Source of the DNA: Candidatus Aquicultor sp.
GTDB taxonomy: Bacteria > Actinomycetota > Aquicultoria > Aquicultorales > Aquicultoraceae
DNA: 24,000 nt
Assembly: GCA_036504445.1 (NCBI GenBank)
Contig: DASXVE010000025.1
Location: 353,955 to 377,954, forward strand
Reading direction: 5' to 3'
A program made the position numbers and the translations under genes. The notes beneath the pieces were generated by a model. It ran no database searches and was not told where the DNA came from. It saw only the letters and a list, made by a program, of their open reading frames with translations. Shown here one piece after another: positions 6,846-24,000 of this stretch (position 1 is its first letter; the number at the start of each line of letters is the position of its first letter).

Positions 6846-8747
6846 TTAATCCCGATCAACTTTGACCTGAGCGCTTATTGCCCTAGTATTACCAGCTAAA
6901 TCGGTTATATAAAGTTTCAGCATATAGATACCATCTGCAATTTTTTGACCCCGATTGTCCGTGCCATTCCAGGACACTAGCTGCTCTTCACCTTCACCGG
7001 TTCTTAGCCCATAAACCGGATTTGCCATATCGATGCGACCGCTCTTGACCGGATAAACTACCAAGCAAAACGACGATGGTTCATTTGATAGCACCGCAAC
7101 TGCTACCTTGGGTTTATTTAGCGTAATGGTATTATTTTTGACCTTGTAGCAAGGCTTAGGCGGAATTGTGTCAACGGTAAACATCCAATGACATTGTGCG
7201 GTACTCCCCGCCCTATCACTTACGGCAACAGTTGCATAATGTAAACCCTCCTGCAGCTTAGTTAGCGGCGACCCGGTAAGAGTATTCGACATCAACGTAT
7301 GTCGACAGGGATTATCATCGATCGAAATTGATAGTGTGCTTGAATCAATGCCGGAACCATCGAGCCCATCAGCCATATCAACATTTATTATAGGCAGCGC
7401 CGTATTGATAAAGGCTCCATCGAGTGGATAACGGATATTGATTCGGGGCGGTGCGATATCGGCGAGCACATCTGGTTCGGCTATACCATCAACGAGGAGC
7501 CTCTTCCAGAATGGCAAAATGCTAAATCCCGGATCAGTCATATTAACCTCATTGCACGCTGATGCTTTAACGCTTTCCCATAGCGCATGCTCATCTAAAA
7601 TCCGCATATTAACAGAGTACAGGCCGTCCGGCGTGTCGGTTTCCTCAACCACAACTTGTTCATTGTTGCAAGCGCCATCTATTATGCCTTGCCAAAAATT
7701 CGAGTCTTGTGCTTCGACAGCTATGCTTTTTTCTTGCGCTGTATACTGGTCAAAACCGGATGCCCTCCTATCCTCCGACCCTAATGCTCTTGCCTGCGTA
7801 GCTGCTTGTTGTGATGTAGACAAAAGCTTCTCTTTATAGAATGGGGCTACTTGTTCACTGTAATCCGGTATCATCCCTCTTGGTGTTGGGTTATTAATCC
7901 ATGCATAGACGGCCATCTCTGAGAGTGCGCGGTTGCTCTCTACTCCCTTTCGCTTCATGCTATCGAGAAATAGCGACCGCCTGACCGGGTCCCATGAACC
8001 AATACTTTTTCCATATGCAAATTGCATGATAGCCAGTTTTGTTGCCCAACTTTTGATCCTGTCACGGATGCATGATCTTGAAAGTGTTGTCGATAATGCT
8101 CGCTGCTTCAGTTCCTCATCAGATATAATCTTATGCTTCATGACGGCGCTGTCATGAAGCATAATCAGTCTGTAATTGAGTAGGGCTTGATATAGATTTT
8201 TGTCATCAAATGAGATCGATTTGTCATCCGCAGCATCAAGCGGACCTTGGGTCAAAAACGAATATGCTTCACAAAGAGATTCGCCTATAAAGTGTTTAAT
8301 GGAACCTCCTGTGCCATCGGGGCATATCGGAAACAAATTTTTGTTATGTGCCACCCAATCCGCGGCAATATGACCGCCCCATCCCAGGGCTTGAGCTTGG
8401 GCAAATTCCGTGATGGCCCCATTATTATTAGCTACGGCTAGCATTAAATAGCCGAAGTTAGGCATATCGGCAAACGGTCGCTGCTCGTTTTCTATTCTTG
8501 GATCAGGAGAATGGAAATAGTCCGCCCAACTCTGATTTTTGTTGTTCTCATCTAAAACTGGTGGATAATCGCCTATGACTTGTACGCTCATATCAGGCCC
8601 CGTACCGCTTACTCCAAAAACAGGAGTGAACTCTACTCCTGATAGACGGTTGATATGGTAATGACTAATAGCATTCCAGGCTAGAGCGTTACTACCAGTG
8701 CCAACGATAAGAAAGGCTAGTAACAACACGACTATCTTCCGAACCAC
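6846..8747 (-). CDS. Secreted multidomain protein: N-terminal Zn-dependent phospholipase C / S1-P1 nuclease-like domain (inferred), Ig-like domain, C-terminal FlgD-Ig-like domain
   Basis: The signal peptide ..GTGSNALA is followed immediately by W (WNAISHYH). Further candidate ligands are DYFHSPD, GGHIAADWVAH and KHFIGE, the spacing pattern of Zn ligands in the PLC/P1 fold. The C-terminus ..LVSWNGTDNRGQKIADGIYMLKLYITDLAGN.. looks like a FlgD-Ig domain. The GTG start abuts the stop of the lipoprotein gene. Confidence 0.6.
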   Translation of the reverse strand: MVRKIVVLLLAFLIVGTGSNALAWNAISHYHINRLSGVEFTPVFGVSGTGPDMSVQVIGDYPPVLDENNKNQSWADYFHSPDPRIENEQRPFADMPNFGYLMLAVANNNGAITEFAQAQALGWGGHIAADWVAHNKNLFPICPDGTGGSIKHFIGESLCEAYSFLTQGPLDAADDKSISFDDKNLYQALLNYRLIMLHDSAVMKHKIISDEELKQRALSTTLSRSCIRDRIKSWATKLAIMQFAYGKSIGSWDPVRRSLFLDSMKRKGVESNRALSEMAVYAWINNPTPRGMIPDYSEQVAPFYKEKLLSTSQQAATQARALGSEDRRASGFDQYTAQEKSIAVEAQDSNFWQGIIDGACNNEQVVVEETDTPDGLYSVNMRILDEHALWESVKASACNEVNMTDPGFSILPFWKRLLVDGIAEPDVLADIAPPRINIRYPLDGAFINTALPIINVDMADGLDGSGIDSSTLSISIDDNPCRHTLMSNTLTGSPLTKLQEGLHYATVAVSDRAGSTAQCHWMFTVDTIPPKPCYKVKNNTITLNKPKVAVAVLSNEPSSFCLVVYPVKSGRIDMANPVYGLRTGEGEEQLVSWNGTDNRGQKIADGIYMLKLYITDLAGNTRAISAQVKVDRD

Positions 8748-9437
8748 TTACTGCTCCTCTCTATAACCGATATCCGAAAGAGGTATCTTATTCCAACCTT
8801 GCATTTTGATATATTTAACCAAGCTTCCTGCATGCCGTGGCGGCTGAAACCAACCGAGGTAAGCAGAATAGCTGTCTTGAGGAACATAATCTAGAGGCAA
8901 TATTGATGGTTTCTCTGCCCTGACCTTATAATCGAGCGCATAGCCCAGCGCCCTAGCGCCCTGGAATTTAGCGTAAATATAGCTATCACATAGATAACCA
9001 TTTCTATAGTCAGCTAATTTGCGTGGTACCAATCGTGGGTTCAAGGGGAAACGCGGGCCCATTGAGTCTTGTGAGTACGGCTCTTCGAAACCAAACGCAC
9101 CGTCTAAGCCGTAACCTCGTTGATCTATAACCGGGATATAAACCTTAAGCAAGCTTCCGTGCTTGGTTTTAATTAAACCCAACTCTGCATCGGGATAATC
9201 CATAGCCCGGTATTTCGCATAATCCCTCTTCAACCCTCTATAAATCCCCCAGATTGGTTTGCCATTGCTCGCTGGAAATGGCAGGTATACCGTGACATTA
9301 CGCAATACTTCGCCTTTCGGGGGCGAGATCGCAAAGTTATAGGTAAAACTCACGTATTGCTTTCTGCCGCAGCCGCTAAGTGGAAAAAGAAGTAGCAGTA
9401 CAATAAGCGCTAAGGTCAACCGTACCCATCGATGCAT
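8748..9437 (-). CDS. Lipoprotein of unknown function
   Basis: The lipobox LLLFPLSG-C follows a basic/hydrophobic signal (MHRWVRLTLALIVLLLL). ATG 9437 has GGAGAA 7 nt upstream, whereas the track start 9485 would overlap the upstream gene by 26 nt. No recognisable domain was found. Confidence 0.7.
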   Translation of the reverse strand: MHRWVRLTLALIVLLLLFPLSGCGRKQYVSFTYNFAISPPKGEVLRNVTVYLPFPASNGKPIWGIYRGLKRDYAKYRAMDYPDAELGLIKTKHGSLLKVYIPVIDQRGYGLDGAFGFEEPYSQDSMGPRFPLNPRLVPRKLADYRNGYLCDSYIYAKFQGARALGYALDYKVRAEKPSILPLDYVPQDSYSAYLGWFQPPRHAGSLVKYIKMQGWNKIPLSDIGYREEQ

Positions 9438-9459
9438 CGGTTGTTCTCCAAGTCGTGAT

Positions 9460-11025
9460 CTATACATCTCCCTTGACCTCCACATCAGCGCTTCCCGTTA
9501 ATGTTGGCATGCCGTTTTCTATCGCAGTAACAACAATCCTATAGCTGCCGTCCGGCGCAACGCGAATGCATCTATCGCCGAACTCAGCTGCAAGCTCCGG
9601 GTCAACCATCTCCGGAAAATCTTTAAGTCCACACCACGTCATGTGATGCTCACCTGCCGGCAAAGACGCCTCCTGGGCTAGCTGCCTAACCACCGTGCCT
9701 TGGTAATCCATAACATCAACGGTAACAGTAGCTGGATTCGCAAGCGTAAAGCTGATAGTTGCACTGCCATTTTTTAGATCATACGGGTTGAAGCGTGGTG
9801 CATTCACAGAAACACCCAAGTTTGAGCTTCGTTGCGGGGTTGAAAAGCAGCACATTTGCGATCTGCTAAGATTCAAAATAACCGAGCCATCCGCAATAGC
9901 TGGAGAAGGGTCTATCAGATACCAGTCAGAATATCGGCCACCGGCTTCATAGCGCCAGGCAAGCTCTCCGGTGTTCTGATCTAGCACATAGAGCCTGCCA
10001 TCGGATGAATCAACGACAGCATCGGTAAACGGACGTGTTGAACCTATGAAAACATAGCCATTTGCAAGCGCTACCGATGCACCACGGTATTTGTTGCGCA
10101 CATCAAATGTCCATTTAACTTCGCCAGTGCCTATATCATAAGCGGTTACCGTACCTGCATATAACGTATTGCGCCCTACTGATAACGATTCAGATGCTCC
10201 ATTTACATCTGCAGTAGTCCTCGACCATTTTATCGCACCGGTATCGGCATCAAGGCAATACATGCCCAAGTTGCCTGCCGTAAAGACCGATGAGCCGGAT
10301 ACAACCGGCATAGAATGCCCTTTCCAGCTATTGAACGACCATTTTATGTGTCCGTCAGCTGCATCAAGTGCAAGCAGCTCACCGCCGCCGACAAACACCG
10401 AGTTATTGGTAAGCGTCGGCGCGGTAAGATATGTTGGGCGCGTGACGACCCAACGAACTTCGCCAGTCATCGCATCAAGGGAGTATACCTTGCTAGCCGA
10501 TGTGCTGAGAACGAGCATATTGCCTAGAACTACTGGTGTTGCCGGCATACCGGCAACAGATGTGCGCCATAGTATGCTTCCATCTACAGCGTTAAGCGCA
10601 TAAACCGATCCATCCGTCGTACCAACATACACATGTCTGTTTGCAAACACCGGCGTACCTGAAAACGGCAGGTTCTTAGCCGTCCAAACAGCCTTGCCGC
10701 TCGCAAGAGAGATTGCCTGAAGCTGGCATTCCGTTTTTATAAGGATACCCCACGCGTAGACGCTCCAGACTTCTCCAACATACACGATGCCATCAGCAAT
10801 AACCGGTCGGGTTCTGCTCTCATCGTACGCGCATTCACCTGGATGCAGCCAGGCAAAATCAAGCGGTGGGGTGATTTTCGTTTCTGCGGAATTATTACCG
10901 GTGTGCCATGAATCGCACTGCGCCATCGGCCAGTTTGAACCGTACGCTGGTTGCACAACACTTATTGCGGTGATGATAACCAAAATATTTAACGCTTTAA
11001 GTAGCCTGCTGAAAATGAGCGACAT
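9460..11025 (-). CDS. Secreted PQQ-like beta-propeller repeat protein with C-terminal FlgD-Ig-like domain
   Basis: After the signal peptide (..VVQPAYG) come six or more repeats of the type YALNAVDGSILW, YSLDAMTGEVRW, LALDAADGHIKW, YCLDADTGAIKW, AYDIGTGEVKW and YVLDQNTGELAW. The C-terminus ..ATISFTLANPATVTVDVMDYQGTVV..HHMTW..DGSYRIVVTA looks FlgD-Ig-like. Confidence 0.85.
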   Translation of the reverse strand: MSLIFSRLLKALNILVIITAISVVQPAYGSNWPMAQCDSWHTGNNSAETKITPPLDFAWLHPGECAYDESRTRPVIADGIVYVGEVWSVYAWGILIKTECQLQAISLASGKAVWTAKNLPFSGTPVFANRHVYVGTTDGSVYALNAVDGSILWRTSVAGMPATPVVLGNMLVLSTSASKVYSLDAMTGEVRWVVTRPTYLTAPTLTNNSVFVGGGELLALDAADGHIKWSFNSWKGHSMPVVSGSSVFTAGNLGMYCLDADTGAIKWSRTTADVNGASESLSVGRNTLYAGTVTAYDIGTGEVKWTFDVRNKYRGASVALANGYVFIGSTRPFTDAVVDSSDGRLYVLDQNTGELAWRYEAGGRYSDWYLIDPSPAIADGSVILNLSRSQMCCFSTPQRSSNLGVSVNAPRFNPYDLKNGSATISFTLANPATVTVDVMDYQGTVVRQLAQEASLPAGEHHMTWCGLKDFPEMVDPELAAEFGDRCIRVAPDGSYRIVVTAIENGMPTLTGSADVEVKGDV

Positions 11026-11067
11026 ATCGACACCCTAACAATAGCAGCACATTTACACTTTTGTGCT

Positions 11068-11096
11068 ATTATACATAAGGCAAGCGGAGTCTGCAA
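11068..11096 (-). promoter_or_regulatory. Candidate sigma70-type promoter for the propeller/lipoprotein/PLC-like genes
   Basis: On the minus strand, TTGCAG (11091-11096), a 17-nt spacer and TATAAT (11068-11073) lie about 40 nt upstream of ATG 11025. Confidence 0.5.
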
Positions 11097-11144
11097 GACC
11101 GAATATTTATTAAGCTAAAGAGGGTGCGTCAAGGATGTGCGCAT

Positions 11145-11172
11145 AAAACAAAAAGCGGCCGAATCGGCCGCC
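11145..11172 (-). terminator. Rho-independent terminator after the chemoreceptor gene
   Basis: On the minus strand, GCGGCCGA-t-TCGGCCGC is followed by TTTTTGTTTT, about 35 nt after the stop at 11206. Confidence 0.8.
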
Positions 11173-11205
11173 CGTTAAAGTCTTTTATATATTTGCATTA
11201 ATTAC

Positions 11206-12942
11206 TTATGCGCTAAGGCTTTCACTGAATTCGCTGACTGTCTTTTCGAGGTCTTCCGACATATCCGAGAGGACCTTGATGTATTCGGTGATTTTTTGCT
11301 CGGATTGTATCTGCACATCGGTCAGCTCAGAAGCTCTATTTGCCGACTCGGTGTTCTTCTTTGAGGTAGCTGCGAGCTGATCAATCGTGTTGACCGCCTG
11401 GGTTGTCGATGCGGCCACTTCTTCTGTCGCCGCTCCGTTTTCCTCGCTGATCATTGCGATCTCATCGATGGTAGCGTGTACCAAGTTGCTGGCGTCCGCC
11501 ATCTTGCCTGCGTTTTCCGAAACGGAGGAGATATGATCGACAATCTTGTTGATGGCCGATGTCATCTCTTCGATAGCGGCTCCGGCATTAACCGCAAGCT
11601 CGCTTCCCGATTCAACTTCGGAGGTTCCCTTCTCCATCGCGTCGACGGCAGCCAGGGTTTCATCCTGGATGCCTTTGATGAGCCCGGTAATCTCTTTCGT
11701 CGCTTTAGCAGACCTCTCGGCGAGCTTTCGCACCTCATCAGCGACAACGGCAAATCCCTTGCCGTGCTCGCCCGCCCGGGCCGCTTCGATAGCGGCGTTG
11801 AGTGCCAGCAGGTTTGTCTGATCTGCAATATCGGTGATAACTTCCACGATATCGCCGATCTGTTTACTCTTTTCACCGAGTATTTGGATCTTCTGAGCGG
11901 AGTCGAGAACCGTTTCTTTGATTCTCTGCATGCCGGATACGGTGTCGTCAACAGCGCCTTTACCTTTTACTGCGATTGATGAAGCCGAGTCAACGACCTC
12001 CGCAACCACGTTGGCGCTTTCGCTGACCATCTCAATCGACAACGTCAGGTCGTTGATGCCGTTGGCCGTCTCGGCGATACTTCCCGCCTGTATCTGCGCG
12101 CCGTCGGCAACTTGGCCGGTAATCTCGGCGATGCTGACAACGAGAGCGCCTAAGTCGTTCGCACCGCTGCACTGCATCGATGAACCGGAGACAACGTCTC
12201 CGACCATGCCCGAAATCTGCTCGGCAAGCTGGACGGTTTCATTATGCGCCGCCGCAAGCTCTTGGCTTGACGCTGAGAGGCGCTTCGCCGTCTCTGATGC
12301 GTGCAAAAGCGACGTTTTGAGTGGCTTTATCACGATGCGCTGAATGACAACAACAACGCCCGCTACAGCTAACCCCTCTATGATGAGGAGCAGCGTGATG
12401 ATAAAGATAAGACTTCGTTGGATCGTGTCGATATGCGAGCCTGCTGCTTTTTGGGCGGTAGCCCCACTTGCTTCAAGCGGCTGCAGTGTCGCAAGACTAG
12501 CACTAAGTGCCGTATCGACCTGTTGCAATTGCGCTGCAGCAAATTCTTCGTTATTGAAATGCTTAAAGAGCGAATCTGCTTGCGTTAGATATGCCGACCA
12601 ACTCTGCTCGGTAGCGGTGATAAGGCTGGGGTCAACGCCGCGTGTTTTCATCGCTGCTAGTAGAGCCGTAACCTTGTCAGTAATGCCGGAGGCTGCGTTA
12701 GCCTGCGCAGTATCTTGGTGTACTGTTGCCTGGTAAGCGCTTCCGCGATGTTCCTGCATTAATGCGCTTAGTGTTTGCGCATCATGCATCGTGACAGCGC
12801 TTTTTTGCATCGCGCTCTTCTCTGAAGCAACCGTGCTTAGACTCGAAATGGTGCAATAACACATGATAAGAAGCGGTATGATGATAACAGCTACCGCCCC
12901 GATGATAACGTTTAGTACTTTTGTCCTTCGCATCCAGCCCAT
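11206..12942 (-). CDS. Methyl-accepting chemotaxis protein (two TM helices, extracytoplasmic helical sensor, cytoplasmic signalling domain)
   Basis: The highly conserved hairpin-tip motif is present: [43 protein letters not shown]1 reads [21 protein letters not shown] and TM2 reads [23 protein letters not shown]. The RBS is AGAGGAGAG. Confidence 0.93.
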
Positions 12943-21670: not shown

Positions 21671-21983
21671 ACTCACCCTTACGAAACACCCCCATATACT
21701 AAAGGCATGATGCAGCAGGCTCCCCCCCTGAAGAGAAAGCCGCTTCATGCCCGGCTTAGCGATTTTGCAAGCAAACGCCTATTGGGTGATTTGTCCTGAA
21801 CATACCCGCTCTCGATACTTTTAAAACTCGCGTACTATATTTTAAATAGCAACACAACGTATTATCTGGTTATAACCGCTTACCCGGCATTTGAGCGTAC
21901 TTGGCTGAGATCAATGCAGTTGAAATAAGCGCTGAAGCGGCATGCGAAGGTAAGCATGTAATGCAAACTAATGCGTCTATCGT

Positions 21984-22008
21984 AAAAAAAGAGGGAGCGT
22001 TAACTCCC
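21984..22008 (-). terminator. Rho-independent terminator after the small membrane-protein gene
   Basis: On the minus strand, GGGAGT-taac-GCTCCC is followed by TCTTTTTTT, starting 5 nt after the stop at 22013. Confidence 0.75.
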
Positions 22009-22012
22009 TGTA

Positions 22013-22201
22013 TTAGATTAGCCGGGCCAGGTGAAATACCGTCGCCATGAGTGCAAAGAACACCAGTACGTATAGAATGCTTATGAGTGCGTTCGAGAAG
22101 GCAACGATCCCCAGAAGCTGTACTACAACCAGCATGGTGGCAATGGCAAGAACCGCATAAACCAAGCTCCACAACGGGGCACGCTGCATTCTAGCGGCCA
22201 T
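22013..22201 (-). CDS. Small (62 aa) two-helix membrane protein, function unknown
   Basis: ATG 22201 lies 6 nt after AGGAGGTG. The two hydrophobic helices read LWSLVYAVLAIATMLVVVQLLGIVAF and LISILYVLVFFALMATVF. The gene has its own terminator. Confidence 0.6.
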   Translation of the reverse strand: MAARMQRAPLWSLVYAVLAIATMLVVVQLLGIVAFSNALISILYVLVFFALMATVFHLARLI

Positions 22202-22384
22202 TATCGCCACCTCCTTACACAGTATATATACCCACTATTTGCCAACCTCAGCCAATACGAGTGCTCATGCTCTGGCACATGGGTCTATCATACTATTGAT
22301 GTTTCACCTAGACATTAATATTTGCATCCGCATCTCTAATTACGGCGTTCTAGTGCTCTTATTGTGAAATTTGTTTCGCTGGTC

Positions 22385-23137
22385 CTAATATCGTTCTGGA
22401 TAAAACAGATTTCGAACTTCAAATCTTCCCTGGACTAAAAGGGCAAGATCATACATCGCCATATCTTGATCTATTAGCGGTCGTAATGCACGAAGCCTAA
22501 CATAAAGACTCGGATGGCACTTGCTGATCAGCTTTCTTGAACCGCAAAGGCACGGCGTATCTGCTTTAATCGCATCACTCGTTGCGAGAAACTTAACGCT
22601 ACTAATGATCAATGAGTTATCCTCGACTTGAAGTTCTTCACGATAGAATTGCATTGTGCCAATAAATCCATGGCCATACTCACCAGCAGGCCACTTACCG
22701 GTTTTTTCGAAATAGCTCTGCTCGTAAAAAAACCATATTATGAGTTCGTTTAGTAGCGTTTCTATTGTTGTGTTCCTATTACAATAACGCTTTTTTGCTG
22801 CTGCATAGCAAAGGCAGGCCTTGCCTTCACGAAAGTAATGCAGGTTCGCGCTATTGTTTAGTTTCCAGATTTGCATAACTTTCTCTTTGCGACCCCCGAC
22901 CTCATAAACTCCTGGGAGAGCGTAAGGATAATCGTCCGGGAATTCAATTCTTACTCTATACGAATCCTGTATATATAGCCCCTCGACTGTGCCATCAAGG
23001 GGCAGAACGCCGACTAACACTACTCTACCTTGCTCTTCTTGGCAGTAAAGTGTTGGAAATTTTCCCTCGACAAGCGTTCGTTCTGCACGATAGAATTCTT
23101 CCTCACGTTTATACCAGGGTTCCATCTTCAGCTTCAT
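22385..23137 (-). CDS. Stand-alone E2/UBC-like protein with C-terminal SEC-C-type zinc knuckle (CBASS Cap2-like, E2-only)
   Basis: VLVGVLPLDGTVEGLYIQDSYRVRIEFPDDYPYALPGVYEV..NLHYFREGKACLCY follows the UBC pattern (beta-meander, FPxxYPxxxPxV, His, then Gly-x-x-Cys-Leu). CLCGSRKLISKCH (22514-22552) has the spacing of SEC-C motifs. The gene starts 8 nt after the CD-NTase stop. Confidence 0.7.
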   Translation of the reverse strand: MKLKMEPWYKREEEFYRAERTLVEGKFPTLYCQEEQGRVVLVGVLPLDGTVEGLYIQDSYRVRIEFPDDYPYALPGVYEVGGRKEKVMQIWKLNNSANLHYFREGKACLCYAAAKKRYCNRNTTIETLLNELIIWFFYEQSYFEKTGKWPAGEYGHGFIGTMQFYREELQVEDNSLIISSVKFLATSDAIKADTPCLCGSRKLISKCHPSLYVRLRALRPLIDQDMAMYDLALLVQGRFEVRNLFYPERY

Positions 23138-23145
23138 GGTATTTA

Positions 23146-24000
23146 TTACCTACTCTTAAAACCCAAAATTAGCAAGGCCCCACCAAGTAGTGACAATAGT
23201 AAGCCCCACGGCTTTGGTCTGCTTGTACCAGCAACAGGGTATGTAATTCTATTAGACTTCTTATCACCTGGCACTACGAATCTACTGCCGAACACCTTAT
23301 TCCATCCCTTGTATGCTTCAGTGGAATTATCTTGTGTGAGCGCATCATCAGCACGCTCAATAAGCTTTTCGAGCTTTTCTTTGAAGCTCTTCATTTGCGC
23401 CTCAGCGATCCTATCGCTCAAACGCTCTGTCGAGTCTACAGGATTGTAGATTATCTCCGAGAACCGCAGCTGGTTATAGATCGCCTTGACAGTACTCACA
23501 AACGAGACATCATCCCTTGTGGAACTCGAAAAATGATTAGCTGCCAGAACGGTGAGTATTAGACCGGATGGCATTTTGCAGGACTGATCATCAGCCCATG
23601 CTTTTAGGTACCGCACGACTTTCCGTAGCTGATCAGTCTTCGTTTTTACTTCGTCCAGGAACCAATTAGTCAAGGCTCTTGGATCACTCGCTATCCAACC
23701 GACACCTTTGACTGCCAGATATGGAATATCGGCGCACATACAGTAAATTGGCAGATCAACATGATAGTCGCCCTTATAGACAACACGGACGCATTTCTTC
23801 TTATCAACTGGTTTCTCGCTGGTGTGATTCTCAATCGCTTTATAAACCCAGCCATGGACCGTCTCGGACGTTGGCCATTCATTCTGATTATCGGCGAAAT
23901 GTTGCAGGTAGACGCCGTCATCAATATCAAACTCACTATCAATAGGATTAACGATTGTTGACATAGCGTATGATCCCTGGCCATGAAACTTTGGCACTTT
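23146..24000 (-). CDS. cGAS/DncV-like nucleotidyltransferase (CD-NTase, SMODS-type), 5' end off-window, with hydrophobic C-terminal tail
   Basis: The frame is open to the window edge, and the track's M is a GTG one codon from the end. The Pol-beta NTase triad context reads GQGSYAMSTIVNPI..EFDIDDGVYL..RVVYKGDYHVDLPIY. W..SDPRALTNWF and the helical C-domain ..TEAYKGWNKVFGSRF are typical of CD-NTases. The tail reads PKPWGLLLSLLGGALLILGFKSR. Confidence 0.8.
   Translation of the reverse strand, partial: KVPKFHGQGSYAMSTIVNPIDSEFDIDDGVYLQHFADNQNEWPTSETVHGWVYKAIENHTSEKPVDKKKCVRVVYKGDYHVDLPIYCMCADIPYLAVKGVGWIASDPRALTNWFLDEVKTKTDQLRKVVRYLKAWADDQSCKMPSGLILTVLAANHFSSSTRDDVSFVSTVKAIYNQLRFSEIIYNPVDSTERLSDRIAEAQMKSFKEKLEKLIERADDALTQDNSTEAYKGWNKVFGSRFVVPGDKKSNRITYPVAGTSRPKPWGLLLSLLGGALLILGFKSR

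What the first reader, a model, noticed from the sequence alone, without database searches (positions are those of the whole stretch)
23146..23277. The CD-NTase C-terminus is a 43-aa extension ending in a hydrophobic helix with an internal Gly-Gly
After the usual end of the CD-NTase fold (..KGWNKVFGSRF) the ORF continues VVPGDKKSNRITYPVAGTSRPKPWGLLLSLLGGALLILGFKSR. This is a polar linker, a ~17-residue hydrophobic stretch (23158-23208) and a basic KSR end, which resembles a tail anchor. In characterised type II CBASS, the free C-terminus of the CD-NTase is the handle that the E2/Cap2 machinery conjugates. A membrane-embedded C-terminus conflicts with that unless it is processed. The ..SLLGG|A.. 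(G272-G273, 23179-23184) resembles a ubiquitin-like precursor with a removable extension, but no JAB-type protease is visible. Alternatively the cyclase is membrane-tethered, which would be an unusual way to localise signalling.
Basis: inference. Interest (0 to 1): 0.65.

Follow-up and report, generated by a model that had tools for sequence, protein, structure and literature searches.

The report
Hydrophobic removable tail on CBASS cyclase
An antiviral signalling enzyme in a bacterial E2-only CBASS defence operon carries an unusual, greasy 18-residue tail after the conserved site where its partner enzyme probably cuts and attaches it, so it may be made as a membrane-tethered precursor.

Summary
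The sequence is exactly as described. The ORF is a clade-B-like CD-NTase, cut by the window edge (full length 330 aa). A 250-aa E2-only protein follows it. There is no E1 domain and no JAB protease, so this is an E2-only ("type II short") CBASS.

The first 25 residues of the "43-aa extension" are normal for this clade. They form a disordered linker ending in a conserved [KR]P[WY]-G motif (here K309-P-W-G312). In 91 of 108 motif-bearing relatives that motif lies at most 4 residues from the stop.

Only the last 18 residues (LLLSLLGGALLILGFKSR) are unusual. The single close orthologue (73% identical) also has a 15-residue hydrophobic run directly after KPWG. Its sequence differs and it has no GG, although synonymous sites are nearly saturated. 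Hydrophobicity therefore appears selected, and the GG does not.

The E2 is homologous to Serratia marcescens E2, which cleaves after a C-terminal Gly of its cyclase. The catalytic His and Cys align.

Best reading: G312|L313 is the E2 cleavage and conjugation site, and the hydrophobic peptide is a removable, probably membrane-associating leaving group. This is a new variant of a known system. Cleavage and membrane binding are inferred, not shown.

The parts
23146..24000 (-). CD-NTase (clade-B-like CBASS cGAMP-synthase family), C-terminal 284 codons plus stop. The N-terminal 46 residues lie outside the window.
   Evidence: PADLOC Cyclase PDLC00774, E 3.8e-95. NCBIfam NF041078, 254 bits against a cutoff of 150. 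Closest solved structure is BfCdnB 7LJO, E 5.6e-46 (clade from PMC10442399). Full gene is L001:9000-9992. AlphaFold2 core pLDDT is above 90 up to about residue 290.
23215..23277 (-). Family-typical disordered linker, V288-P308 (VVPGDKKSNRITYPVAGTSRP)
   Evidence: Homologues of 316-349 aa all carry a 25-40-aa tail after FGxRF. pLDDT here is 41-55.
23203..23214 (-). Conserved K309-P310-W311-G312 motif. This is the inferred E2 recognition, cleavage and conjugation site (G312|L313).
   Evidence: [KR]P[WY] occurs in 108 relatives, followed by G in 60 and by S, A or C in 25. The motif is at most 4 residues from the stop in 91 of 108. All motif-bearing relatives whose loci were inspected sit next to E2-only genes. 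Translation checked.
23149..23202 (-). Atypical 18-residue tail L313-R330 (LLLSLLGGALLILGFKSR, 1884 Da). It has a 15-residue uniformly hydrophobic run (23158-23202) plus K-S-R. Inferred to be a removable leaving group and membrane-associating segment.
   Evidence: Hydrophobicity values. Orthologue P0002 has a 15-residue hydrophobic run at the same position, ending at R328. Among 108 motif-bearing relatives, only these two have long hydrophobic post-motif tails.
23179..23184 (-). It is not conserved.
   Evidence: The P0002 alignment shows L-G at this position.
22385..23137 (-). E2-only (UBC-fold) protein, 250 aa. Inferred to be the cysteine transpeptidase/protease acting on the cyclase tail. 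The true start may be the second ATG (M5).
   Evidence: PADLOC E2 PDLC00865, E 1.1e-40. AlphaFold2 pLDDT 83, with top Foldseek matches UFC1, Cdc34 and UEV. hhalign to the S. marcescens-type E2 gives probability 94.4%, E 9.2e-8.
22814..22840 (-). E2 active-site stretch H100-Y-F-R-E-G-K-A-C108
   Evidence: H100 and C108 are invariant in the family. They align to H87 and C101 of S. marcescens E2. Translation checked.
22514..22552 (-). SEC-C-like zinc knuckle C196-L-C-G-S-R-K-L-I-S-K-C207-H208 in the E2 C-terminal region
   Evidence: C196, C198, C207 and H208 are invariant. The family profile hits the SecA zinc-binding peptides 1TM6, 1OZB and 1SX0 at E 0.002-0.005. Translation checked.
22013..22210 (-). 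Small hydrophobic ORF (58-65 aa, two predicted TM segments) inside the low-GC island. Its membership of the operon is uncertain.
   Evidence: Kyte-Doolittle maximum is 2.8. It is absent downstream of E2 in related operons L004 and L013.
21992..22009 (-). Terminator-like hairpin plus T-run directly after the small ORF. This is the likely end of the transcription unit.

Best explanation
The locus is an E2-only CBASS carried on a low-GC island of about 3.2 kb. It encodes a 3-TM effector (just outside the window), a clade-B-like CD-NTase and an E2.

The cyclase has the disordered C-terminal tail typical of type II CBASS cyclases. The tail carries the clade's conserved K-P-W-G motif.

By analogy with S. 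marcescens E2-CBASS, the E2 (Cys108 and His100) attacks the G312-L313 peptide bond. This would form a cyclase~E2 thioester or isopeptide without ATP and release whatever follows the Gly. In most relatives the leaving group is 1-3 residues.

In this lineage the leaving group has grown into an 18-residue peptide with a 15-residue uniformly hydrophobic core and a basic end. Most likely it holds the unprocessed cyclase at, or partly in, the cytoplasmic membrane, where the TM effector sits. E2 cleavage would then free the cyclase as the covalent E2 conjugate.

Shown here:
- the gene content of the operon;
- motif conservation and its position near the stop;
- that the tail is rare, and that its hydrophobicity is retained in the orthologue;
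- E2 homology with aligned catalytic residues.

Inferred:
- cleavage at G312;
- membrane association;
- any regulatory consequence.
For: 1. E2-only architecture. PADLOC gives Cyclase 3.8e-95 and E2 1.1e-40. No ThiF or JAB gene lies within 10 kb on either side. The same three-gene layout occurs in L003, L004, L013 and L014.

2. Tail type tracks the partner enzyme within one cyclase clade. '...DDARSA-COOH' enders sit with Cap2 (Prok-E2_B + ThiF) and Cap3 (JAB). This matches the E. cloacae CdnD end ...TGRFA (10.1101/2022.03.31.486616). '...KPW[G]xx' enders sit with E2-only genes.

3. The motif is close to the stop in relatives. Of 108 relatives, 91 have at most 4 residues after PW. The query has 19 and P0002 has 26, and these are the only hydrophobic ones.

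4. Selection on hydrophobicity. The cyclase bodies are 73-76% identical. Four-fold synonymous sites are only 39% identical against 26% expected at random. The tails share about 4 of 18 residues. Both still have a 15-residue hydrophobic run from residue 313 to 327, followed by K or R at 328. T at the second codon position is 56% (tail 1) and 40% (tail 2), against 25% in the body.

5. Long leaving groups are mechanistically compatible. S. marcescens E2 removes MBP or GFP fused after the Gly (10.1101/2022.05.25.493364; PMC12948482). Natural cyclase-E2 fusions in this same clade place an entire E2 domain after ...TKPYA or ...FYGG.

6. E2 homology. The window's E2 is homologous to S. marcescens E2 (8HSB_B): hhalign probability 94.4%, E 9.2e-8. 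H100 and C108 align to H87 and C101, and both are invariant.

7. Tail flexibility. The tail is predicted flexible (pLDDT below 50), as needed to thread into an E2 active site.

8. TM-like character. The segment plots as TM-like, not amphipathic (Eisenberg <H> 0.86, muH 0.11). It is more hydrophobic than any soluble neighbour.
Against: - No experiment or complex model shows cleavage in this subfamily. The characterised system uses a clade-G cyclase with a structured E2-binding motif that is absent here (PMC12948482).
- The residue after PW is not always Gly. V, L, Y and W occur in some relatives. G-to-V abolished linkage in S. marcescens, so the exact scissile bond is uncertain.
- The hydrophobic run is only 15-17 residues and contains 3-4 Gly. 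The Kyte-Doolittle mean at a 19-residue window is 1.66, and the Hessa sum at 19 residues is +2.4. It may not span a bilayer.
- K-S-R at the C-terminal end does not fit the positive-inside rule for an N-in/C-out anchor.
- AlphaFold2 predicts no helix.
- Only two sequences in 5.8 billion clusters carry this tail, so the conservation evidence rests on a single pair.
Confidence: 0.5

Rival explanations
1. Permanent tail anchor. The hydrophobic segment is a true C-terminal membrane anchor that is never removed. The cyclase works as a membrane-tethered enzyme next to its TM effector, and the E2 acts on it in another way or not at all.
For: - The segment is TM-like by hydrophobicity and has a low hydrophobic moment.
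- An unrelated member of the same cyclase family, P0221, has a clear 20-residue C-terminal TM segment in an operon with a patatin effector and no E2. Membrane-anchored cyclases without processing therefore probably exist.
- The effector here is a 3-TM protein.
Against: - The KPWG motif that marks E2-only partners is intact and sits immediately before the hydrophobic run.
- The E2 keeps its invariant catalytic His and Cys.
- An E2 without an E1 has no known way to use a cyclase other than by attacking a peptide bond (10.1101/2022.05.25.493364).
- The segment is short for a stable anchor.
Confidence: 0.12
2. Functionless extension. The leaving group is discarded and therefore weakly constrained. 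A stop-loss or insertion after the ancestral ...KPWGYL* produced a tail that happens to be hydrophobic and is tolerated because the E2 removes it.
For: - Post-motif length varies in the family, with polar tails of 6-11 residues in 15 relatives.
- P0002 reads KPWGYL and then continues. KPWGYL is a common complete ending in relatives, which suggests read-through as the origin.
- Tail sequence is poorly conserved.
- The tail is very rare.
Against: - A random 18-aa extension reaches this hydrophobicity in only about 1 in 1,100 trials.
- Synonymous sites between the two orthologues are nearly saturated (about 1.3 substitutions per site by Jukes-Cantor). Even so, both keep a hydrophobic run of identical length and position, ended by a basic residue.
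- Unselected hydrophobic C-termini are usually costly.
Confidence: 0.15
3. Protein-docking element. The hydrophobic tail binds a hydrophobic groove on the E2, the TM effector or the cyclase itself, rather than lipid. It would act as an autoinhibitory or recruiting pro-segment and stand in for the structured E2-binding motif of clade-G cyclases.
For: - This cyclase lacks the alpha-helix/beta-sheet E2-binding motif described for SmCdnG (PMC12948482).
- The segment is short and Gly-rich for a TM helix.
- Its E2 is 56% identical between the two tail-bearing operons, so co-evolution is possible.
Against: - The single-chain AlphaFold2 model shows no docking of the tail onto the cyclase (pLDDT below 50).
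- The low hydrophobic moment argues against an amphipathic docking helix.
- Relatives with the same E2 family work without such a tail.
Confidence: 0.15
4. The protein is a ubiquitin-like precursor processed after G319-G320 (..SLLGG|A..).
For: Superficial resemblance to the ubiquitin ..LRGG|X precursor end.
Against: - The GG is not conserved in the orthologue and lies in the middle of the hydrophobic run.
- The clade-wide conserved small residue is G312 in KPWG.
Confidence: 0.04

Closest known systems
Serratia marcescens E2-CBASS (SmCdnG-SmE2; PDB 8HSB, 8YJY, 9KKB; Yan et al., bioRxiv 10.1101/2022.05.25.493364; Xiao et al., PMC12948482)
   Same: - The operon has a CD-NTase and a stand-alone E2, with no E1 and no JAB.
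- The E2s are homologous, with the catalytic His and Cys aligned.
- A conserved small residue (Gly) near the cyclase C-terminus is followed by a leaving group.
- The E2 there is shown to tolerate long C-terminal fusions as leaving groups.
   Different: - The cyclase here is clade-B-like (330 aa) rather than clade G (407 aa). It lacks the structured alpha/beta E2-binding motif.
- The E2 is 250 aa with an added helical region and a SEC-C-like zinc knuckle, against 162 aa.
- The effector is a small 3-TM protein rather than 2TM-SAVED, and there is no exonuclease gene.
- The natural leaving group is an 18-residue hydrophobic peptide rather than a single Glu.
- Direct sequence searches do not link the two E2s. 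Only a profile-profile comparison does.
Canonical type II CBASS (Cap2 E1-E2 fusion plus Cap3 JAB; Ledvina et al., Jenson et al. 2023)
   Same: - The cyclase clade is the same. Relatives 50-55% identical to the query use Cap2/Cap3 with the same 3-TM effector family.
- Both have a disordered C-terminal tail used as the conjugation handle.
   Different: - There is no E1 (ThiF) domain and no JAB gene here.
- Cap2 substrates end exactly at ...[GA]R[SF]A-COOH with no extension. The query has KPWG plus 18 residues.
Sibling E2-only operons of the same subfamily (e.g. P0047/L004, P0043/L013): CdnB-like cyclase ending ...KPWGYR/YL plus a 239-250-aa SEC-C-type E2. Catalogued by PADLOC but, as far as I found, not studied experimentally.
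   Same: Same effector, cyclase and E2 families, same gene order, and same KPW-G motif.
   Different: Their leaving group is 1-3 residues. Only the query and P0002 carry the hydrophobic 18- or 25-residue extension.
Sortase-type C-terminal sorting signals (motif, hydrophobic segment, basic tail) and tail-anchored proteins. This is a functional analogy from general knowledge only.
   Same: - The layout is tripartite: recognition motif (KPWG), hydrophobic run, then a basic end (KSR).
- A cysteine transpeptidase would cleave at the motif and form a thioester acyl-enzyme.
   Different: - The protein is cytoplasmic with no signal peptide.
- The enzyme has a UBC fold, not a sortase fold.
- The hydrophobic run is shorter than typical sorting-signal TM segments.
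- No homology is implied.

Membership tests
E2-only ('type II short') CBASS | CD-NTase with intact catalytic core | tested here: met
   NF041078 scores 254 bits against a cutoff of 150. PADLOC Cyclase E 3.8e-95. G55, S56, D71, D73 and D128 are invariant in a 119-sequence alignment. AlphaFold2 core pLDDT is above 90.
E2-only ('type II short') CBASS | Adjacent stand-alone E2 (UBC-fold) gene, with no E1/ThiF domain and no JAB/Cap3 gene | tested here: met
   PADLOC E2 E 1.1e-40. Foldseek top hits are UFC1, Cdc34 and UEV. The 20-kb locus has no ThiF or JAB gene.
E2-only ('type II short') CBASS | E2 catalytic Cys with a nearby His, equivalent to SmE2 C101 and H87 | tested here: met
   H100 and C108 are invariant. 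They align to the SmE2-type H and C by hhalign (probability 94.4%, E 9.2e-8).
E2-only ('type II short') CBASS | Conserved small residue (Gly) near the cyclase C-terminus, followed by at least one leaving residue | tested here: met
   KPW-G312 is present. G follows the motif in 60 of 108 relatives and S, A or C in 25 more. At least 1 residue follows the motif's G-position in 107 of 108 relatives.
E2-only ('type II short') CBASS | ATP-independent cleavage after the Gly and a covalent cyclase-E2 thioester or isopeptide | not testable with these tools
   Needs biochemistry or mass spectrometry. Known only for S. marcescens (10.1101/2022.05.25.493364).
Characterised CdnG-E2 subgroup (SmCdnG type) | Clade-G cyclase with a C-terminal alpha-helix plus three-stranded beta-sheet E2-binding motif | tested here: not met
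   The closest solved structure is clade-B BfCdnB (PMC10442399). SmCdnG is not among the PDB hits at E up to 0.001. AlphaFold2 shows no structured element after about residue 290.
Canonical type II CBASS (Cap2/Cap3) | E1 (ThiF) adenylation domain fused to the E2, a JAB isopeptidase, and a cyclase ending in a free Gly or Ala | tested here: not met
   No ThiF or JAB gene. The cyclase ends ...GFKSR. Cap2-associated relatives end ...RSA.
Tail-anchored membrane protein | A single hydrophobic segment within about 30 residues of the C-terminus, with no signal peptide and no other TM segment | tested here: met
   The only hydrophobic window is residues 311-327 of 330. The rest of the protein folds as a soluble cyclase.
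Tail-anchored membrane protein | Hydrophobic segment long and hydrophobic enough to span the bilayer (about 18-22 residues) | tested here: inconclusive
   The run is 15-17 residues. Kyte-Doolittle means are 2.50 (15-mer) and 2.13 (17-mer) but 1.66 at a 19-residue window. Hessa sums are -2.15, -1.11 and +2.44. Eisenberg <H> is 0.86 and muH 0.11. No dedicated TM predictor was available.
Tail-anchored membrane protein | Membrane localisation in vivo | not testable with these tools
   Needs fractionation or imaging.
Ubiquitin-like precursor processed at a di-glycine | Conserved GG immediately before the removed extension | tested here: not met
   G319-G320 is not conserved in the 73%-identical orthologue and is absent from all other relatives, which end before this position.

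The most novel reading that the evidence does not exclude
The cyclase is made as a tail-anchored or monotopic membrane pro-enzyme. The E2 then acts like a cytoplasmic 'sortase': transpeptidation at KPWG312 detaches the cyclase from the membrane as a covalent E2 conjugate. This would couple priming of CBASS signalling to location next to the 3-TM effector, or to the state of the membrane. It would also leave an Ibs-sized 18-residue hydrophobic peptide in the bilayer. Membrane tethering of a bacterial cGAS-like enzyme by a cleavable anchor has not, to my knowledge and in the papers searched, been described.
Probability: 0.25. Interest if true: 0.75.

Novelty: new variant of a known kind. Interest (0 to 1): 0.5.

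Why it matters
E2-only CBASS is the least understood of the ubiquitin-like CBASS types. Only one system, which uses a clade-G cyclase, has been studied.

This locus contributes three things:

1. **A clear sequence rule within one cyclase clade.** A free ...RSA end goes with Cap2/Cap3. KPWG plus a short leaving group goes with E2-only partners. This fits ATP-free peptide-bond activation.

2. **A natural variant with a hydrophobic leaving group.** If the tail tethers the pro-enzyme to the membrane, this would be a new layer of spatial control of a bacterial cGAS-like enzyme. It would also be a ready-made natural reporter for E2 cleavage, since processing would cause a 1.9-kDa shift and a change of cell fraction.

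3. **A simple, decisive set of experiments**, listed under the next steps.

Tried and rejected
- **Frameshift, stop-loss or assembly artefact.** Rejected as a current artefact. The tail is in frame with normal codon composition (GC3 0.39 against 0.45 in the body). It ends in a double stop 5 nt before the E2 start. The orthologue P0002 has an equivalent tail. The second assembly, L002, is 100% identical and possibly from the same sample, so I did not count it as independent. An ancient stop-loss remains the likely origin.

- **Duplication origin of the tail DNA.** blastn-short found no source within the locus or in L003.

- **GG as the processing site.** Rejected.

- **Searches for more tail-bearing relatives.** These gave almost nothing:
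  - The genome-contig scan gave one distant hit.
  - The metagenome-contig scan used poor patterns and gave three distant loci.
  - A homologue search with the TM-tailed P0221 returned only three proteins.
  - The E2 homologue search gave only seven proteins.

- **Direct sequence links between this E2 and solved structures.** phmmer and profile searches against the PDB found only weak UBC hits and SecA zinc-finger peptides. hhalign against the single SmE2 fragment was not significant (E 0.11). The link appeared only with a small alignment of SmE2-type domains.

- **Effector and small downstream ORF.** Neither has a PADLOC, Pfam or NCBIfam match.

- **AlphaFold2 of the cyclase.** It gave no information on the tail conformation.

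- **Literature searches for membrane-anchored or TM-tailed CD-NTases.** They found nothing relevant.
Full report
**1. The observation**

Window 23146-23277 (minus strand) encodes VVPGDKKSNRITYPVAGTSRPKPWGLLLSLLGGALLILGFKSR and a stop. It follows ..KGWNKVFGSRF, with the GG at 23179-23184, exactly as reported.

The ORF is open to the window edge. The whole gene (330 aa) was recovered from the source contig (L001:9000-9992, 100% identical to the window). In full-length numbering:
- the core ends at F287;
- the hydrophobic run is W311/L313 to F327;
- the GG is G319-G320.

Curated cyclase models end at about residue 287.

The hydrophobic run is not a chance feature:
- The 15-mer Kyte-Doolittle mean is 2.50 and the Hessa sum is -2.15.
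- Eisenberg <H> is 0.86 with muH 0.11, so it is uniformly hydrophobic rather than amphipathic.
- It is more hydrophobic than any soluble protein in the neighbourhood.
- About 9e-4 of simulated random extensions reach this level.

The run is short, at 15-17 residues. At a 19-residue window it is only borderline (Kyte-Doolittle mean 1.66). AlphaFold2 leaves residues 295-326 unstructured at pLDDT below 50, so 'helix' is unverified.

**2. What the locus is**

On the minus strand the cyclase is followed 5 nt after a double stop by a 250-aa protein. This protein matches PADLOC CBASS E2 models (E 1e-40) and has no E1 domain.

Its AlphaFold2 model (pLDDT 83) matches UBC and UEV folds. Family alignment shows the following invariant residues:
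- H100 and C108;
- H156;
- a SEC-C-like zinc knuckle, C196, C198, C207 and H208. The best PDB profile hits for this part are the SecA zinc-binding peptides.

Upstream of the cyclase, just outside the window, lies a 194-aa three-TM protein with no family match. It is conserved in the same position in related operons and is the presumed effector.

No JAB or ThiF gene lies within 10 kb.

The three genes sit in a low-GC island (0.40-0.46, against 0.52-0.58 in the flanks) between ClpB and a 2-hydroxyacyl-CoA-dehydratase-like cluster.

The closest solved cyclase is BfCdnB (7LJO, clade B04; PMC10442399). The locus is therefore an E2-only ('type II short') CBASS with a clade-B-like cyclase.

**3. What relatives show**

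All 120 closest homologues (46-73% identical) and 150 more distant cluster representatives were inspected. Two main tail types stand out:

- **...[GA]R[SF]A at the very C-terminus.** A representative (P0006) sits with Cap2 (Prok-E2_B + ThiF) and Cap3 (JAB). This matches the E. cloacae CdnD end used by Cap2 (10.1101/2022.03.31.486616).
- **...[KR]P[WY]-G plus 1-3 residues.** Representatives P0047, P0043 and P0002, and the query, sit with the 239-250-aa E2-only protein.

Among 108 motif-bearing relatives:

| Residues after PW/PY | Number of relatives |
|---|---|
| at most 4 | 91 |
| 6-11 (polar) | 15 |
| 19 (query) and 26 (P0002) | 2 |

The residue after PW is G in 60 and S, A or C in 25.

The query reads K309-P-W-G312 followed by 18 residues. 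The only close orthologue, P0002 (73% identical, same three-gene operon), reads KPWG followed by YLILPIIALGAFIIG-RQYNWPNLQG. These two are the only hydrophobic post-motif tails. A third, rarer tail type (...FYG plus 1-2 residues) occurs among the more distant representatives.

The two hydrophobic runs occupy the same positions (313-327) and are each closed by a basic residue (328). They share only about four residues, and the GG is not conserved.

Four-fold synonymous sites between the two genes are 39% identical, against 26% expected at random. That corresponds to about 1.3 substitutions per site. Retention of the hydrophobic character therefore indicates selection.

**4. Link to the known mechanism**

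In S. marcescens E2-CBASS the stand-alone E2 is a cysteine protease and transpeptidase. It cuts after a conserved C-terminal Gly of the cyclase. The natural leaving group is one residue, but MBP and GFP fusions are also removed. The E2 then holds the cyclase as a thioester or isopeptide, and poly-cGASylation activates it (10.1101/2022.05.25.493364; PMC12948482).

Direct sequence searches did not connect the window's E2 to SmE2. The connection was made in two steps:
- SmE2-type domains fused to cyclases of this same clade hit SmE2 (8HSB_B) at E 2.8e-12.
- A profile of those domains aligns to the window's E2 family with 94.4% probability (E 9.2e-8). H100 and C108 fall on the catalytic H87 and C101.

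Natural cyclase-E2 fusions in the clade place a whole E2 domain right after ...TKPYA or ...FYGG. Long sequences after the motif are therefore a natural occurrence.

**5. Interpretation**

The most economical reading is that G312|L313 is the E2 cleavage and conjugation site, not G320|A321. The 18-residue hydrophobic peptide would be an enlarged, selected leaving group. Before cleavage it most likely associates the cyclase with the membrane, where the TM effector resides.

Cleavage and membrane association are both inferences. I put about 0.5 on this package. The rivals and their probabilities are:
- a permanent anchor (0.12). This is encouraged by P0221, a distant cyclase with a clear 20-residue TM tail in a patatin operon without an E2;
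- a functionless extension of a discarded segment (0.15);
- a protein-docking pro-segment (0.15);

**6. Comparison and novelty**

The system works like SmCdnG-SmE2. It fails the structural definition of that subgroup: it has no clade-G cyclase and no alpha/beta E2-binding motif, and its E2 is larger with a zinc knuckle.

It belongs to a catalogued but, as far as I could find, experimentally unstudied E2-only subfamily. Within that subfamily the hydrophobic leaving group is a rare variant, seen in two sequences. No paper found describes a membrane-tethered or TM-tailed CD-NTase.

I rate it a new variant of a known kind, with interest 0.5. It offers a concrete, testable twist on CBASS regulation, but the evidence base is thin.

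Noticed in passing
window 22013-22210 (-) and 21992-22009 (-): A 58-65-aa strongly hydrophobic ORF with two predicted TM segments lies 175 nt downstream of the E2, inside the low-GC island. A terminator-like hairpin plus T-run follows it directly. It has no family match and is absent from related operons, so it may be a fourth, lineage-specific gene of the transcription unit or may be spurious.
   Followed up: partly
window ~21840-24000 (L001 ~8100-11300): The CBASS genes form a low-GC island of about 3.2 kb (0.40-0.46, against 0.52-0.58 in the flanks). It is inserted between ClpB/MerR/DnaK-DnaJ genes and a 2-hydroxyacyl-CoA dehydratase-like cluster, which suggests horizontal acquisition.
   Followed up: partly
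window 22514-22552 (-): The E2 family carries an invariant CxCGS..K....CH knuckle. Its best PDB matches are the SecA C-terminal zinc-binding (SEC-C) peptides and YchJ-C. It is also present in E2 domains fused to cyclases (P0203). Its role in a CBASS E2 is unknown.
   Followed up: partly
L001:8397-8981 (just outside the window, upstream of the cyclase): The presumed effector is a 176-201-aa three-TM protein with an invariant N-terminal ..A.HKMRERS.. motif. It is shared by E2-only and Cap2/Cap3 operons of this cyclase clade. It has no PADLOC, Pfam or NCBIfam match, so it appears to be an uncatalogued CBASS membrane effector family.
   Followed up: partly
P0006/L011 against P0047/L004 and P0043/L013: Within one cyclase clade (about 50% identity), the C-terminal ending predicts the partner. 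A free ...DDARSA end goes with Cap2 + Cap3. ...KPW[G]xx goes with E2-only. This fits a requirement for a peptide-bond leaving group when no E1 is present.
   Followed up: yes
P0199, P0178, P0189, P0266, P0202, P0203 (cluster representatives): These are natural cyclase-E2 fusion proteins in the same clade. SmE2-type small E2 domains follow a ...FYGG motif, and SEC-C-type E2 domains follow a ...TKPYA motif. They look like self-contained substrate-enzyme fusions joined at the putative scissile site.
   Followed up: partly
P0221; L005:1827-2915, L006:2106-3194: A distant cyclase (35% identical) has an unambiguous 20-residue C-terminal TM segment (AVAVVILAIGALILGGLWAW). Its operon has a patatin phospholipase and a CD_NTase_C-domain protein and no E2. 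It is nearly an orphan in the databases.
   Followed up: partly
window 23125-23172 (-): The last tail codons (AAG AGT AGG) overlap a likely Shine-Dalgarno sequence for the E2. The E2 has two in-frame ATGs (M1 and M5), and relatives start at the position of M5 (MEPWYK).
   Followed up: no
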